Source: the human T2T-CHM13v2.0 reference genome, Homo sapiens
Assembly: GCF_009914755.1 (NCBI RefSeq)
Contig: NC_060940.1
DNA: 64,000 nucleotides
Reading direction: 5' to 3' (one strand)
Within the stretch, counting starts at the first letter, position 1, and every line of letters starts with the position of its first letter. This document shows, piece by piece, positions 3,101-9,100 of this stretch. Both the position numbers and the translations under genes were made by a program. The notes beneath the pieces were generated by a model. The model was not told the DNA's origin, made no database searches, and saw nothing but the letters and a program-made list of their open reading frames with translations.

Positions 3101-6100
3101 AGGAGCAGGACATTGTGTTCCTGATCGATGGCTCAGGCAGCATCTCCTCCCGCAACTTTGCCACGATGATGAACTTCGTGAGAGCTGTGATAAGCCAGTT
3201 CCAGAGACCCAGCACCCAGGTGTGCCTTTGGGGGAGGGAGGCTGCTGGGGGTGGGTGCTTGGATCCTGGTGAAATGGCCTCAGCCCCAGCCCTGTGTGCT
3301 TCTCCCAGTTTTCCCTGATGCAGTTCTCCAACAAATTCCAAACACACTTCACTTTCGAGGAATTCAGGCGCAGCTCAAACCCCCTCAGCCTGTTGGCTTC
3401 TGTTCACCAGCTGCAAGGGTTTACATACACGGCCACCGCCATCCAAAATGTCGTGTGAGTCCTGATTTCTTCCAGGCACAGTCCCAAAGCACCCAGGTCT
3501 TCCCTTGGGCCTCATCTGTCTCCACGAGAAGGGGACAGGCAGGGACCAAAATCCAGCCCGTGATACCCTTGCCAAGCTGGGGCCTCTGGGTGGGACTGGG
3601 GCCTCCCAAAGGAAAAGGCATCTTCTAATTTTCACAAGGGCACCAGGGGCTAGTGTGGTTTGGTTCACAGGCCTCTAAGACCTCTCCTTTCCTGATAGGC
3701 ACCGATTGTTCCATGCCTCATATGGGGCCCGTAGGGATGCCGCCAAAATTCTCATTGTCATCACTGATGGGAAGAAAGAAGGCGACAGCCTGGATTATAA
3801 GGATGTCATCCCCATGGCTGATGCAGCAGGCATCATCCGCTATGCAATTGGGGTAGGGCGTGGGATGGCTTCCCACTTCTCCCACGGCTTCCTCTCAGGG
3901 CAACTCCCCTTTCTGTGTATGTTCTTTTCTCTTTGAGACAGGGTCTTGCTCTATCACCCAGGAAGTGGTGCAATCCTAGCTCACTGCAGCCTTGAACTCC
4001 TGGGCTCCAGTGATCCTCCCACCCCAGCCTCCCCAGTAGCTGGGACCACAGGTGTGTGCCATCAAGCCTGGCTATTTTCTTTTTGGTTGAGATGGGGTCT
4101 TGCTATGTTGCCCAGGCTGGTCTCAAATTCCTGGCCTTAAGCAATTCTACCACCTTGGTCTCCCAAAGCACAGGGATTACAGGCGTGAACCACCGCCAAC
4201 AACATCCCTTTCAAGGATAGAAACACCAGCTCTCTCGGCTCTTACTGCCTTAAGGATGAAAACTCTGCCCCAGACTGGAGACCATGATCCTTTCTCCTAA
4301 ACTCCCTGATGCTGTCCGGGCTTCGTGTTTCTCCTGTGTCCACCGGGTGTGATCATGCTGATCTTGTGGGGTTATTGGAAGATGTTGCACCCAGTGCACA
4401 CAGGCACATTTGATTTATTATTTTTACTGAGTTGATCTTTTCTGGGGACAGGTTGGATTAGCTTTTCAAAACAGAAATTCTTGGAAAGAATTAAATGACA
4501 TTGCATCGAAGCCCTCCCAGGAACACATATTTAAAGTGGAGGACTTTGATGCTCTGAAAGATATTCAAAACCAACTGAAGGAGAAGATCTTTGCCATTGA
4601 GGGTGAGTCTGAAGGGAGCTCTTCGCTTGGGGAATCCTCAGCCGTTAACACCTTTCCACTTAGAACCCGAGGCTCCGTGAAACAGGTAGACAGCGTCTCG
4701 GTTCTCCTGCTTTCCCGGGACCCCGATAGCCATGTCTGTCAGCTTGTCCCCACTGACGTCCCCCAGCACTGTCAGAGCTGCCCCAAAGTGGCCCCAGGGA
4801 TGGCCCTGCTCCCCACAGAGAGTGATCTCACACCACCACCGGCTCCACTGCAGAACAAAAAGCAGTGCCAGGCCCAACCCAGGAGACCCTTCCACCCACA
4901 CCGGGCCCTACCCAGCCCACATCCCACCAGCCACTCACTCCCCTGGGCAAGGGGCACACGGACACCTGGCCCCCTCGGGTCTGCTTGTAGACCTGTGGGG
5001 GGCCCTGATGAGGACCAGATCGGTGCTGCCATCGCTGTCCACATCCATGGAGCAGAGGGGGGCCCCGAAGTCGGAGCTGATCTGGAGGGCAGAGCCTGGT
5101 CCCTGTCACAGGCACCAGCTCTCCCTGTAGCCTCCAGTCTTAGCTTCTCCTAAAGCTGAAGTGTTCTTGGACCTGGCAAAGCCCGTCTCCCTCCCTGGCA
5201 CTCAAGCGTCATGCCTTCCCCCAGGTACGGAGACCACAAGCAGTAGCTCCTTCGAATTGGAGATGGCACAGGAGGGCTTCAGCGCTGTGTTCACACCTGT
5301 GAGTGGGGCCCCTTAGGCCGATGATGTGCCGTGAGGGGAGGGGGAGCAGGGAAGGCCAGGGTGGGTGTCAGGTGGGTAAGAGGCGCAGGCGGAAGGCATA
5401 TCTCTGGTACATGCTGTCTTCCTGCTCCGGCCTCTGCTCAGCCCTGGAATCCTTTTCTCCCAGGATGGCCCCGTTCTGGGGGCTGTGGGGAGCTTCACCT
5501 GGTCTGGAGGTGCCTTCCTGTACCCCCCAAATATGAGCCCTACCTTCATCAACATGTCTCAGGAGAATGTGGACATGAGGGACTCTTACCTGGGTGAGAA
5601 ACAGCCAGGGGTTGGGGACAGGTGGGAGATGCACTGCCCAGGGTGGGGTCCAGGGTTCTGGGGAAGGGGTATGGGGGCTGTGCTGCCCAGGGTGGGGTCC
5701 AGGCTTCTGGGGAGGGAGGATGGGCACTGTGCTGCCCGGGGTGGGTTCCAGGGTTCTGGGGAGGGGGGATGGGGGCTGTGCTGCCTGGGGTGGGGGTCCA
5801 GGGTTCTGGGGAGAGGGGATGGGCGCTGTGCTGCCTGGGGTGGGTTCCAGGGTTCTGGGGAGAGAGGATGGGGGCTGCATTGCCCAGGGTGGGGTCCAGG
5901 GTTCTGGGGAGGGGAGATGGTGCTGTGCTGCCCGGGGTGGGGGTCCAGGGTTCTGGGGAGGGGGAATGGGGGCCTTTGTGCTGAGGCCTGGGCCCCTCAG
6001 GTTACTCCACCGAGCTGGCCCTCTGGAAAGGGGTGCAGAGCCTGGTCCTGGGGGCCCCCCGCTACCAGCACACCGGGAAGGCTGTCATCTTCACCCAGGT

Positions 6101-9100
6101 GTCCAGGCAATGGAGGATGAAGGCCGAAGTCACGGGGACTCAGGTTGGGCGTGACAGGAGCCAGAGGGGAGGATGAGGGTAGGGGAGGTGGCTGGGGCAG
6201 AGGAGAGGATGGAGGGGCTTTGAGGGCCTTGGGGGAGGTCCTGGTACCTGGGGAGAGGTGGGACCTGGCCCACAGGGCTGCCTCTGGCAGGGACAGGCAG
6301 CATGACCCAGGCTCTGCCCTTCAGATCGGCTCCTACTTCGGGGCCTCCCTCTGCTCCGTGGACGTAGACAGCGACGGCAGCACCGACCTGGTCCTCATCG
6401 GGGCCCCCCATTACTACGAGCAGACCCGAGGGGGCCAGGTGTCTGTGTGTCCCTTGCCCAGGGGGGTGAGTGGCTGATGGGCCTGGGGTGGGTGGGGTCT
6501 GGTGTGGGTGGAGGGGTTGCCCGGGTTGGGCCTGGCACTGCTTTTTTTCTGCAGTGGAGAAGGTGGTGGTGTGATGCTGTTCTCTACGGGGAGCAGGGCC
6601 ACCGCTGGGGTCGCTTTGGGGCGGCTCTGACAGTGCTGGGGGATGTGAATGGGGACAAGCTGACAGACGTGGTCATCGGGGCCCCAGGAGAGGAGGAGAA
6701 CCGGGGTGCTGTCTACCTGTTTCACGGAGTCTTGGGACCCAGCATCAGCCCCTCCCACAGCCAGGTGAGGCCGTGTCCCATTTCTGTCACTAGAGCAGCC
6801 TGCTTCTTGCCTCTCCCACTCTGTCATACTGGAAAACTGTCCCTTTTTACCTTTTCCTACCTCCCTTGCCCAGCTCTGAGCACCTTGTAGCAGTGGCGTG
6901 GTCTCAGCTCACTGCAACCTCCGCCTCCCAGGTTCAAGCGATTCTCTGCCTCAGCCTCCAGAGTAGCTGGGATTACAGGCATGCACCACCATGTCCGGTT
7001 ATTTTTTGTATTTTAGTAGAGACAGGCTTTCGCCATGTTGGCTAGGCTGGTCTTGAACTCCTGACCTCAGGTGATCTGCCTGTCTCGGCCTCCCAAAGTG
7101 CTGGGATTATAGGCGTGAGCCACCATGCCCAGGCCCCTGCCAGTTTTACAAGGTACACAGGTCAGGCACAGAAAACCCATTTTACAGATGGAATCTGGGA
7201 CACTAGGAAGACAAGGGCCTTGGTTTGTTGGAGGTTCAGAGTGGGTCCGAGATGGTGAAGGGCACTCCGGCCTCCTGACCTCTAACCCGGTGTGCAGTCT
7301 CCCGGCTCCCTGCTGCTCACCACTTAGGTCCAGTCATTTCAACCTTCCCTTCCACTCGCCCCTCTCCTCCCTGGATGCTACATGATTTTATTCCCTTCCT
7401 GCCATCAAGGTCCCACCAAATGCCCATCCCTGCAGCCGCCCTCCACCCCAAGGGAGCAGGGTTCCCTGAGAACGAAGGGCTGCTTTTCTTGGCAAAAGTC
7501 AAGAAAGCTCTGTTAAAAAATAGGCAAAGGGGCTGCTCCAGGTGGCTCACATCTGTAATTCCGACACTTTGGGAGGCTGAGGCAGGAGGATCACTTGAGG
7601 CCAGGAGTTTCAGGCCAGTCTGGGCAACATAGGGAGACCCCATCTCTAGAAAAAATTTTAAAAATTAGGCAGGCATTGTGGTGCTGTAGTAACTGTAGTC
7701 CCAATTACTCGGGAGGCTGAGGTGGGAGGTCACCTGAGCCCAGGAGGTTGAGGCTGCAGTGAGCTATGATTGCGTCACTTCACTTCAGCCCAGGTGAAAG
7801 AGCACAATCCCGTGTCAAAAAAAAAAAAAAAAAAAAAAAAAGGGCAAAGGATTTGGATAGGGTAGACGTTTCTCCAAAGAAGAGGTACAAAGGGCCAATG
7901 GGTGCATAAAATGATTCTCAATGTCATTAGTCATCAGCAAATCAAAACTATAATGAGATGCCACTTCTCACCTACTAGAATGGCTAGAAACAAAGGCGGA
8001 TAATGACAGGTGTTGGTGAGGATGTGGAGAACCGGGCATCCTCCCCCATGCTGGGGATGATGTAAATCCACGCAGCTGCTTTGGAAATCAGCATGGCAGG
8101 TCCTCAAAACATTAAACATAGGCTGGGCACAGTGGCTCATGCCTGTAACCCCAGCACTTTGGGAGGCCGAGGCGGGTGGATAACCTGAGGAGTTTGAGAC
8201 TAGCCTGGCCAACACAGTGAAACCCCATCTCTACTAAAAATCCAAAAAAAAAAAAAAAAATTAGCTGGGCATGGTGGTGGGTGCCTGTAATCCCAGCTAC
8301 TTGGGAGGCTGAGGCAGGAGAATCTATTGAACCTGGGAGGTGGGGGTTGTGGTGAGCCGAGATCGCGGCACTGCACTCCAGCCTAGGCAACAAGAGCAAA
8401 ACTCCGTCTCGAACAAACAAACAAACAAACAAAAAGTTAAACATAGAGTTGCCATGTGATCTGGCAATTCCACCTATAAAACATGCTAAGTGAGGGAAGC
8501 CAAACACAGAAGGCCACATGTATTCAGGCCAAATGTCCAGAACAGACAGATCTGTAGAGACAGAAAGTAGATGAGCAGTTTCACAGGGCTGGGTGTGGGG
8601 GAAAGTCAGGGGCATGAGGGTGACTGCTAATGGGTGTGGAGTCTCTTTTTGGGGTAGTGGAAATGTTCTAAAATTGATTGTGGTAGTGGTTTCACAACTC
8701 TCTAAACATACCAAAAGGCACTAAGTCATATACTTTAAAGGGGTGAGTTGTGTGCTATGTGGTCTATAGCTCAAAAAAGCTGTTACCAAAAAGAAAAAAG
8801 TGCCAAGGAAGGTCCCTGCAGTTCTGTCACACACCAGCTGTGTGATCTTTGACAGGTAACTCACCCTCTCTGTGCTCAGTTTTCTCACTGGTAAAATGGT
8901 GATACTAATAGAACCAACCTTACTGAGCTGCTGCTGTGAGGATTAAATGAGTTAGTATGCATGAAGTGCCTGGCACACAATAGGTATCATGTTGTTATAA
9001 TCTGTTTTAATTATCATTAAGATAGTTTAACAACTGGCCAGGCGCGGTGGCTCCCGCCTGTAATCCCAGCACTTTGGGAGGCTGAGGCAGGCAGATCACT

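What the first reader, a model, noticed from the sequence alone, without database searches (positions are those of the whole stretch)
4662..6735. Inverted copy of exons 13-14 in ITGAX intron 9: a built-in antisense strand against the gene's own coding exons
Seen: about 440 bp of the 622-bp intron 9 (4662-5099) is the reverse complement of the intron 12 end, exon 13, intron 13 and most of exon 14 (6306-6735). Identity in exon 13 is about 87% by eye, and many mismatches are transitions, some allowing G-U pairs. The two arms are only ~1.2 kb apart in one pre-mRNA. Established: long intramolecular dsRNA recruits ADAR1/2, and complementary flanks drive back-splicing. Inference: the stem would sequester the exon 13 acceptor and donor and the exon 14 acceptor while looping exons 10-12. 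Three outcomes are predicted: a 347-nt exon 10-12 circRNA; in-frame co-skipping of exons 13-14 (351 nt, removing two Ca2+-binding propeller loops); and A-to-I recoding in exons 13-14, with intron 9 as a non-Alu editing-complementary sequence. ITGAD intron 9 has no such copy.
Basis: partly seen in the sequence, partly recalled or inferred. Interest (0 to 1): 0.8.

Follow-up and report, generated by a model that had tools for sequence, protein, structure and literature searches.

The report
Inverted exon copy flanking circITGAX
Intron 9 of the human CD11c gene (ITGAX) holds an old, decayed, backwards copy of the gene's own exons 13-14, and the RNA stem it can form loops out exactly the three exons that make up a circular RNA already reported in human blood.

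Summary
Window 4666-5099 is the reverse complement of 6307-6736 (intron 12 end, exon 13, intron 13, first 182 nt of exon 14): 375 of 436 columns identical. It is the annotated unprocessed pseudogene fragment LOC100422479. It keeps intron 13, has a broken frame, and shows CpG-type decay. ITGAD and ITGAM have no such copy.

The two arms are predicted to form about 400 base pairs (cofold -877.5 kcal/mol against -371.2 for the arms apart). This is the strongest of 125 inverted pairs in the ITGAX part of the window, and it encloses exons 10-12.

The primers and junction probe of a published circITGAX assay (PMC7031184 supplement) map to exon 12 end 6143 joined to exon 10 start 5225.

That the stem causes this back-splice is inferred, not shown. 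I found no evidence for exon 13-14 skipping or for A-to-I editing inside the repeat. The ITGAX editing sites whose positions I could read map to intronic Alus elsewhere.

This is a new member of a known kind: circularisation driven by complementary sequences.

The parts
4666..5099 (-). Arm A: inverted, decayed copy of the ITGAX intron 12 end, exon 13, intron 13 and most of exon 14. It lies in intron 9, with its sense on the minus strand, and is annotated as pseudogene LOC100422479.
   Evidence: Searches show the inverted match at 86% identity. (tblastn) shows 52% protein identity over 140 columns, with in-frame stops and a frameshift. One search shows 30 copy-specific substitutions, 14 of them G>A.
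6307..6736 (+). Arm B: the functional original. It comprises the last 18 nt of intron 12, exon 13 (6325-6465), intron 13 (6466-6554) and the first 182 nt of exon 14 (6555-6736).
   Evidence: One search gives the alignment. One search shows that each exon encodes one FG-GAP repeat (E 1.5e-9 and 1.9e-10). One search shows that the exon 13 acceptor and donor and the exon 14 acceptor are paired with arm A in the MFE fold.
5225..6143 (+). The looped segment: exons 10 (5225-5298), 11 (5464-5593) and 12 (6001-6143). This is the body of the published circITGAX, 347 nt if introns 10 and 11 are removed. The back-splice acceptor is 5225 and the donor is 6143.
   Evidence: One search gives the published primers and probe. 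One search places the forward primer at 6113-6132. One search places the reverse primer's complement at 5235-5255. One search places the probe's exon 12 part at 6134-6143, and the probe's remaining letters match the first bases of exon 10 at 5225.
5100..5224 (+). A 125-nt linker between the inner end of arm A and the exon 10 acceptor.
   Evidence: There is no other inverted repeat of 20 nt or more apart from a 22-nt, 77% match, 5214-5235/6237-6258.
6144..6306 (+). A 163-nt linker between the exon 12 donor and the inner end of arm B. It makes up most of the 181-nt intron 12.

Best explanation
A roughly 430-bp genomic piece of ITGAX itself (end of intron 12 to most of exon 14, intron 13 included) was duplicated in inverted orientation into intron 9 long ago. 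It has since decayed as an unprocessed pseudogene fragment, annotated LOC100422479. Both copies are transcribed on the same pre-mRNA only 1.2 kb apart, so they can pair into an imperfect duplex of about 400 bp. This duplex brings the exon 12 donor (163 nt from the stem) next to the exon 10 acceptor (125 nt from the stem). That is the geometry known to favour back-splicing, and the product is the exon 10-12 circle published as circITGAX. What is shown: the repeat, its pseudogene character, its predicted pairing strength, its rank among the gene's inverted pairs, and the identity of the published back-splice junction. What is inferred: that the duplex forms in cells, and that it is the reason this circle is made. 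In most transcripts intron 9 is presumably removed, or the stem unwound, before it matters, because normal CD11c mRNA includes exons 13-14.
For: Repeat: (375/436 identical). Unprocessed pseudogene: intron 13 is retained, and the frame is broken by stops and a 2-nt insertion. Origin in the ITGAX lineage: the intron 12 end matches X/D (17-18/18) and not M (11/14). In a 4-way alignment there are 10 sites plus one shared 1-nt indel that group copy with X, against 7 for copy+D and 4 for copy+M. There are 30 copy-unique changes against 14 X-unique. Pairing: cofold gives -877.5 kcal/mol against -371.2 for the arms apart. Twenty shuffled-arm controls gain only -28.5 +/- 5.7. There are 401 intermolecular pairs, with uninterrupted helices of 63, 43, 42 and 30 bp. 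In the MFE fold of 4452-6900, 400 arm-to-arm pairs persist. Rank: the pair is first of 125 inverted pairs (E<=1e-10) in window 1-26400, at 494 bits against 319 for the best Alu pair. It is the only one of the 10 closest-spaced pairs that encloses any exon, namely exons 10-12. Published junction: the CircITGAX assay in the PMC7031184 supplement maps to exon 12 end joined to exon 10 start. That circRNA was found by RNase R +/- RNA-seq of pooled blood RNA and measured by qPCR in a cohort. The name circITGAX also appears in four other primary studies (and the medRxiv version listed), but I saw no coordinates for those. The flanking introns are short (622 and 181 nt) and hold no Alu.
Against: No experiment links the stem to the circle. 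I saw back-splice coordinates for one study only, so I do not know how many other ITGAX circles exist or whether exon 10-12 is the dominant one in general. The fold is a thermodynamic prediction that ignores co-transcriptional splicing, helicases and proteins. If intron 9 is usually spliced out before exon 13 is transcribed, the stem rarely forms. Arm B is mostly exon, which is not the usual intron-intron arrangement. A stable stem should also hinder exon 13-14 splicing, yet the normal mRNA is the main product. Whether the copy is conserved in other species could not be checked, because no other mammalian genome is held.
Confidence: 0.62

Rival explanations
1. The copy is a neutral relic with no effect at the RNA level. 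It is just a decaying pseudogene fragment. circITGAX is made for other reasons (RNA-binding proteins, or an exon-skipping lariat), and the match with the enclosed exons is coincidence.
For: The substitution pattern is that of neutral decay: 30 copy-unique changes against 14 in the functional exons, dominated by G>A and C>T. There are no compensatory changes. The G.U excess is explained by strand-biased C>T change in both arms. Normal mRNA includes exons 13-14 (hub annotation).
Against: The strongest inverted pair in the gene encloses exactly the exons of the published circle. With 28 internal exons there are several hundred possible acceptor-donor pairs. The flanking introns are very short and Alu-free, which is unusual for a circRNA that has no specific driver. 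This last point is recalled general knowledge, not tested here.
Confidence: 0.25
2. The main consequence of the stem is on exons 13-14 rather than on circularisation. It could act as an ADAR substrate that recodes the two FG-GAP calcium-binding repeats, or as a mask of splice sites giving an in-frame isoform that lacks exons 13-14. These are the reader's predictions 2 and 3.
For: The exon 13 acceptor and donor and the exon 14 acceptor lie inside the predicted stem. The duplex has helices up to 63 bp. It holds 50 exonic adenosines, including four opposite C: 6366 V>V, 6586 Y>C, 6649 N>S and 6686 P>P. ADAR does act on ITGAX pre-mRNA in blood and lung-lavage cells, at intronic Alu sites.
Against: No paper found reports editing in 4666-5099 or 6307-6736. 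The two ITGAX editing sites I could place map to about 2389 (intron 5) and about 4021 (intron 8). The blood sQTL intron that starts at the exon 14 donor ends at about window 13371, at an antisense Alu and not at exon 15, so it is not exon 13-14 skipping. The supplements that might list further sites were not available.
Confidence: 0.1
3. The published back-splice is a technical artefact (reverse-transcriptase template switching or mis-mapping caused by the inverted repeat) and not a real circle.
For: Structured templates can provoke RT artefacts (recalled, not tested).
Against: The junction sits exactly on annotated exon boundaries, 6143|5225. Neither boundary lies inside the repeat. Discovery used RNase R-treated and mock libraries, and a junction-spanning probe assay was validated on synthetic oligonucleotides. 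Other studies with other methods also report a circITGAX, though by name only.
Confidence: 0.03

Closest known systems
Exon circularisation mediated by complementary sequences (inverted Alu pairs or other reverse-complementary matches in the flanking introns; minigene examples recalled: ZKSCAN1, HIPK3, POLR2A)
   Same: An inverted pair brackets the circularised exons. The pairing is long and strong, the stem lies 125 and 163 nt from the back-splice sites, and the enclosed exons match an observed circle.
   Different: The repeat is not a transposon but a duplicated piece of the gene itself. The downstream arm is not intronic: it is 18 nt of intron 12 plus exon 13, intron 13 and exon 14. The same stem that favours the circle therefore also covers three splice sites needed for the linear mRNA. 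Dependence of the circle on the repeat is untested.
Mouse Sry circular RNA flanked by long genomic inverted repeats (recalled)
   Same: A non-Alu inverted duplication of local genomic DNA flanks the circularised exon sequence.
   Different: The Sry repeats are tens of kb long, nearly identical and lie outside the coding exon. Here the arms are about 430 nt, 86% identical, and one arm is coding exons of the same gene.
Exon-intron duplexes that guide ADAR recoding (editing-complementary sequences, for example GRIA2 Q/R and R/G sites; recalled)
   Same: An intronic sequence is complementary to coding exon sequence of the same pre-mRNA, with A.C mismatches at four exonic adenosines.
   Different: Known ECS elements are short, lie next to the edited exon and are conserved by selection. 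This one is 1.2 kb upstream, 430 nt long and decaying neutrally, and no editing in it has been seen.
Unprocessed (duplicated) pseudogene fragments
   Same: It retains an intron, has a broken reading frame and shows CpG-type decay. It is already annotated as 'integrin subunit alpha X pseudogene' LOC100422479 (hub table).
   Different: It sits inside its own parent gene, inverted, within the same transcription unit and 1.2 kb from its source, so it is transcribed as antisense to the source exons.

Membership tests
Complementary-sequence-mediated exon circularisation | Reverse-complementary sequences, one upstream of the back-splice acceptor and one downstream of the back-splice donor | tested here: met
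   Arm A 4666-5099 ends 125 nt before the exon 10 acceptor. Arm B 6307-6736 starts 163 nt after the exon 12 donor.
Complementary-sequence-mediated exon circularisation | Pairing across the exons is stable and not out-competed by pairing within one flank | tested here: met
   The duplex gains -506 kcal/mol over the separately folded arms, against -28.5 +/- 5.7 for 20 shuffles. In the MFE fold of 2449 nt, 400 arm-to-arm pairs persist. The pair is the top-ranked of 125 inverted pairs in the gene. These are predictions only.
Complementary-sequence-mediated exon circularisation | A back-splice junction joining the enclosed exons is observed in RNA | tested here: met
   The published CircITGAX primers and probe map to 6113-6132, 5235-5255 and the junction 6143|5225. 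This rests on one study's assay sequences.
Complementary-sequence-mediated exon circularisation | Circularisation depends on the repeats (it is lost on deletion or mutation and rescued by compensatory change) | not testable with these tools
   Needs a minigene or genome editing.
Complementary-sequence-mediated exon circularisation | Both arms are intronic (usual, not strictly defining) | tested here: not met
   Of arm B's 430 nt, 323 are exon 13 or exon 14.
Unprocessed pseudogene fragment | Genomic (intron-containing) copy of part of a gene with a disabled reading frame | tested here: met
   Intron 13 is copied at 78/91 identity. tblastn shows in-frame stops and a frame change.
Processed pseudogene (retrocopy) | Lacks introns and has a poly-A tail | tested here: not met
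   Intron 13 and the end of intron 12 are present. There is no poly-A at either junction.
ADAR editing-complementary sequence for exon recoding | An intron-exon duplex containing the target adenosine | tested here: met
   There are 50 exonic adenosines in the predicted duplex, 4 of them opposite C.
ADAR editing-complementary sequence for exon recoding | A-to-G changes seen in RNA at those adenosines | not tested
   No RNA-seq is available. The literature gave only Alu sites elsewhere in ITGAX, and the supplements were not held.
ADAR editing-complementary sequence for exon recoding | Evolutionary conservation of the complementary element | tested here: inconclusive
   Within human the copy shows twice as many lineage-specific changes as the exons (30 against 14) and no compensatory pairs. 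Other species could not be examined.

The most novel reading that the evidence does not exclude
The stem is a working switch in CD11c-expressing cells. When it forms, it both diverts transcripts into circITGAX and exposes exons 13-14 to ADAR or hides their splice sites. This would give recoded CD11c (for example Y>C at 6586 or N>S at 6649, in the FG-GAP repeat region) or an in-frame isoform lacking two beta-propeller blades. It would be a non-Alu, self-derived editing or splicing guide acting on the gene's own coding exons. Its strength could differ between people and so contribute to the ITGAM-ITGAX disease associations.
Probability: 0.1. Interest if true: 0.7.

Novelty: new member of a known kind. 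Interest (0 to 1): 0.45.

Why it matters
circITGAX is used as a blood or vesicle marker in several studies: ageing, Parkinson's disease, early lung cancer and pregnancy loss. In the papers I could search, nobody explains why this gene makes this circle. The sequence offers a simple, testable cause. It is a clean natural example in which the complementary partner is not a transposon but a decayed copy of the gene's own exons. One arm therefore cannot drift freely, and the stem competes directly with normal splicing of two exons that encode calcium-binding propeller blades. It also gives a built-in control, because the neighbouring paralogues ITGAM and ITGAD have the same exons but no inverted copy. 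One general point also came out of the analysis. The two favoured transitions on the transcribed-sense strand (C>T, A>G) turn Watson-Crick pairs into G.U pairs, so same-strand inverted repeats inside genes lose pairing more slowly than their percent identity suggests.

Tried and rejected
1. Processed pseudogene. Rejected: intron 13 is retained.

2. ITGAM or ITGAD as the source of the copy. The copy is almost equidistant from the three paralogues (86.5%, 84.7% and about 84%). However, the intron 12 end excludes ITGAM. The start of exon 14, one shared 1-nt indel and 10 against 7 against 4 informative sites favour ITGAX. The signal is mosaic, probably because the paralogues exchanged sequence: ITGAX and ITGAM exon 13 are 136/141 identical.

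3. Selection for G.U pairing. There are 29 G.U-compatible against 14 A.C transitions, binomial p 0.03. Polarised changes show the same plus-strand bias in both arms (C>T 21 against G>A 6), so mutation bias suffices.

4. Extension of the pseudogene to 4109, as annotated. Not reproduced: neither blastn nor tblastn at E<=10 finds ITGAX-like sequence on the minus strand of 4109-4665.

5. A remnant of the copy in ITGAD intron 9. None was found; that intron holds an Alu instead and does not align with the ITGAX intron 9 flanks.

6. Back-splice coordinates in other papers. The supplements of PMC11574145 hold circITGAX statistics but no coordinates. Those of PMC9610636, PMC11641099 and PMC13321184 held nothing useful. 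A full-text search for the expected hg19 and hg38 coordinates returned only PubMed-id look-alikes.

7. Paralogue control by name search (circITGAM, circITGAD, circITGAL). There were too few mentions, and none with coordinates, to say anything.

8. Rfam scan of 3800-7200. No known RNA family.

9. Earlier-findings tool.

10. Recombination between the arms inverting exons 10-12. Judged unlikely because the longest identical run is 25 nt. Not tested further.

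
Full report
**1. The observation**

The window is human chr16, covering ITGAX (CD11c) and ITGAD. The repeat finder on 3800-7200 gives four collinear inverted blocks that together run from 4666-5099 to 6307-6736. 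blastn of 4000-5300 against the whole window joins them into one minus-strand match: 85.7% over 434 columns, E 2e-141.

My own alignment has 436 columns:
- 375 identical (86.0%)
- 43 transitions
- 10 transversions
- 8 gap columns
- longest identical run 25 nt

Identity by segment:

| Segment | Identical / columns |
|---|---|
| last 18 nt of intron 12 | 17/18 |
| exon 13 | 126/144 |
| intron 13 | 78/91 |
| first 182 nt of exon 14 | 154/183 |

The arms are 1207 nt apart. Intron 9 is 622 nt. Exons 10-12 total 347 nt. Exons 13-14 total 351 nt and both start in phase 0. Each of exons 13 and 14 encodes one FG-GAP repeat.

**2. What the copy is**

The copy includes intron 13 and the end of intron 12, so it is a duplicated piece of genomic DNA and not a retrocopy. 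Its reading frame is broken: tblastn shows 52% identity over 140 columns, with stops and a frame change caused by a 2-nt insertion. The hub's annotation already lists it as LOC100422479, 'integrin subunit alpha X pseudogene', at 4109..5093 on the minus strand. I could not reproduce the part from 4109 to 4665; neither blastn nor tblastn at E<=10 finds ITGAX-like sequence there.

The whole assembly has only four places that match the copy: itself, and exons 13-14 of ITGAX, ITGAD and ITGAM. ITGAD intron 9 holds an Alu and no trace of such a copy. The best inverted match of ITGAD exons 13-14 to ITGAD 50900-54440 has E 0.056.

**3. Origin and age**

The copy is nearly equidistant from the three paralogues. 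Three things point to ITGAX as the source:
- The intron 12 end matches ITGAX and ITGAD (17-18 of 18) but not ITGAM (11 of 14).
- The start of exon 14 carries ITGAX-specific states.
- One 1-nt indel is shared with ITGAX.

The best four-way alignment has 422 columns, 318 of them constant. Its informative sites split as follows:

| Grouping | Sites |
|---|---|
| copy + X | 10 |
| copy + D | 7 |
| copy + M | 4 |

The mosaic fits sequence exchange among the paralogues: ITGAX and ITGAM exon 13 are 136/141 identical, against 158/182 in exon 14. The most likely history is an intragenic inverted duplication in the ITGAX lineage.

The copy has 30 lineage-specific substitutions against 14 in the functional ITGAX segment, and 14 of the 30 are G>A on the copy's sense strand. 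This is what a neutral, methylated pseudogene looks like. About 7% lineage-specific change suggests tens of millions of years. This is a rough inference, because no other mammalian genome could be examined.

**4. The G.U excess**

Of the 43 transitions, 29 allow G.U pairs and 14 give A.C mismatches, with binomial p 0.03. When the changes are polarised with ITGAD and ITGAM, the same bias appears in both arms on the transcribed-sense strand:
- C>T: 21 (14 in the copy, 7 in the exons)
- G>A: 6
- A>G: 6
- T>C: 4

On one RNA strand, C>T and A>G both turn a Watson-Crick pair into a wobble pair. Known strand-biased mutation in transcribed DNA (recalled, not tested) is therefore enough, and selection for pairing need not be invoked.

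**5. Pairing potential**

- RNAcofold of the two arms gives -877.5 kcal/mol, against -371.2 for the arms folded apart.
- Twenty controls with arm B shuffled gain only -28.5 +/- 5.7 kcal/mol.
- There are 401 intermolecular pairs, with uninterrupted helices of 63, 43, 42, 30, 28 and 27 bp.
- In the minimum-free-energy fold of 4452-6900 (2449 nt), 400 arm-to-arm pairs remain.
- In that fold the exon 13 acceptor and donor and the exon 14 acceptor lie inside the stem, and exons 10-12 lie in the loop.

Among 125 inverted pairs with E<=1e-10 in window 1-26400, this pair ranks first, at 494 bits against 319 for the best Alu pair. It is the only one of the ten closest-spaced pairs that encloses exons. 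No Rfam family matches the region. All of this is prediction. It says nothing about timing of splicing or about helicases.

**6. The circle exists**

A name search found circITGAX in eight papers. The supplement of PMC7031184 (GeroScience 2019) lists the CircITGAX assay. I saw passages of that paper and one supplement file. The assay maps as follows:
- The forward primer is exon 12, 6113-6132.
- The complement of the reverse primer is exon 10, 5235-5255.
- The complement of the probe reads the last ten bases of exon 12, 6134-6143, followed by the first six bases of exon 10 at 5225.

The paper found the circle by RNA-seq of RNase R-treated and mock-treated pooled blood RNA. It lists the circle among the most abundant circles unique to the young pool and measured it by qPCR in a cohort. 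It was not among the 4 of 15 circles whose junctions the authors judged conserved in mouse.

circITGAX is also named in other studies, but I saw no coordinates there, so identity with the exon 10-12 circle is assumed:
- a Parkinson's disease blood study (PMC11574145, passages and supplement passages)
- a plasma-vesicle lung cancer signature (PMC9610636, one passage)
- a pregnancy-loss study (PMC11641099, one table row)

**7. How it most likely works**

Flanking complementary sequences that bring a downstream donor next to an upstream acceptor are the established route to exon circles. This is recalled from work on inverted Alus and minigenes; no call supports it. Here the stem ends 125 nt before the exon 10 acceptor and 163 nt after the exon 12 donor. 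The flanking introns are only 622 and 181 nt and contain no Alu. The enclosed exons are exactly those of the published circle.

I therefore think the stem is the main reason this circle is made, with a probability of about 0.6-0.7. The step from 'can pair' to 'does pair and drives back-splicing' is inferred.

Removing exons 10-12 from a linear transcript would shift the frame (347 nt), so the circle is made at the expense of productive mRNA. Since normal CD11c mRNA is the main product, the stem must usually be pre-empted by intron 9 removal or be unwound.

**8. The other two predictions**

I found nothing on exon 13-14 skipping.

For editing, the searches led to two ITGAX sites with stated positions.
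- hg38 chr16:31359000, c.431-700 (PMC11934315, a table passage). This is window 2389, an A in an intron 5 Alu.
- chr16:31360631, an editing QTL that colocalises with IgA nephropathy risk (PMC13321184, passages). By my calibration this is at about window 4021, an A in the antisense Alu of intron 8.

Neither site lies in the repeat. They show only that ADAR reaches this pre-mRNA.

A third paper names ITGAX as differentially edited without giving a site in the text I saw (PMC13582522). Supplements that might list more sites were not held.

The duplex holds 50 exonic adenosines. Of these, 42 would change the amino acid if edited, and four lie opposite C: 6366, 6586 (Y>C), 6649 (N>S) and 6686. These are predictions to test, not findings.

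**9. Is the link in print?**

Three searches returned nothing that connects the repeat with the circle:
- ITGAX with 'inverted repeat' (9 papers)
- ITGAX with 'back-splic' (6 papers)
- 'inverted duplication' with circRNA and intron (6 papers)

I judged the results by their titles and abstracts, and by the ITGAX passages of two of them. LOC100422479 occurs in none of the eight papers listed. The library misses most subscription journals and the circRNA databases, so this is an absence in what was searched and no more.

**10. Verdict**

- The repeat is real and already annotated as a pseudogene.
- The circle is real and already published.
- The link between them is new as far as I could search. 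It is mechanistically ordinary, and it is unusual only in that one arm is the gene's own coding exons.
The editing and skipping predictions remain open.
- Interest is moderate.

Noticed in passing
window 6764 to about 13371 (antisense Alu at 13365-13660): A medRxiv preprint (PMC13321184, passages) reports a blood LeafCutter sQTL intron, hg38 chr16:31363374-31369981, that colocalises with IgA nephropathy risk. By my calibration it runs from the exon 14 donor (6764) to about window 13371. That spot is the poly-T/GAG/ACAG start of an antisense Alu, which I recall as the classic Alu-exon acceptor. It looks like Alu exonisation in intron 14, not exon 13-14 skipping. A length difference between assemblies is the alternative.
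   Followed up: partly
window about 4021 (intron 8 Alu, roughly 4000-4196) and 2389 (intron 5 Alu): Two published ITGAX A-to-I sites map here: chr16:31360631, an edQTL colocalising with IgA nephropathy, and chr16:31359000, c.431-700. Both window positions are A. The intron 8 site lies about 645 nt upstream of arm A.
   Followed up: partly
window 6325-6465 against L005 9437-9577 (ITGAM exon 13): ITGAX and ITGAM exon 13 are 136/141 identical, while exon 14 is 158/182 and intron 13 about 85%. Even the introns of the three CD11 paralogues stay 84-88% alike here. This suggests gene conversion among ITGAM, ITGAX and ITGAD.
   Followed up: partly
window 4109-4665, minus strand: The annotated span of pseudogene LOC100422479 reaches down to 4109, across exon 9 and part of an Alu. 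I find no ITGAX-like sequence on the minus strand there.
   Followed up: yes
window 12545-12732: GC-rich tandem repeats of 37 and 53 nt lie in intron 14, inside a masked stretch and next to a RefSeq enhancer (11959-12565, hub table). They look like the variable-repeat part of a composite retroelement; that label is recalled and not tested.
   Followed up: no
window 51302-51809 (ITGAD intron 9): ITGAD intron 9 is mostly an Alu insertion and does not align with the non-copy parts of ITGAX intron 9. The two paralogous introns have therefore been remodelled independently.
   Followed up: partly
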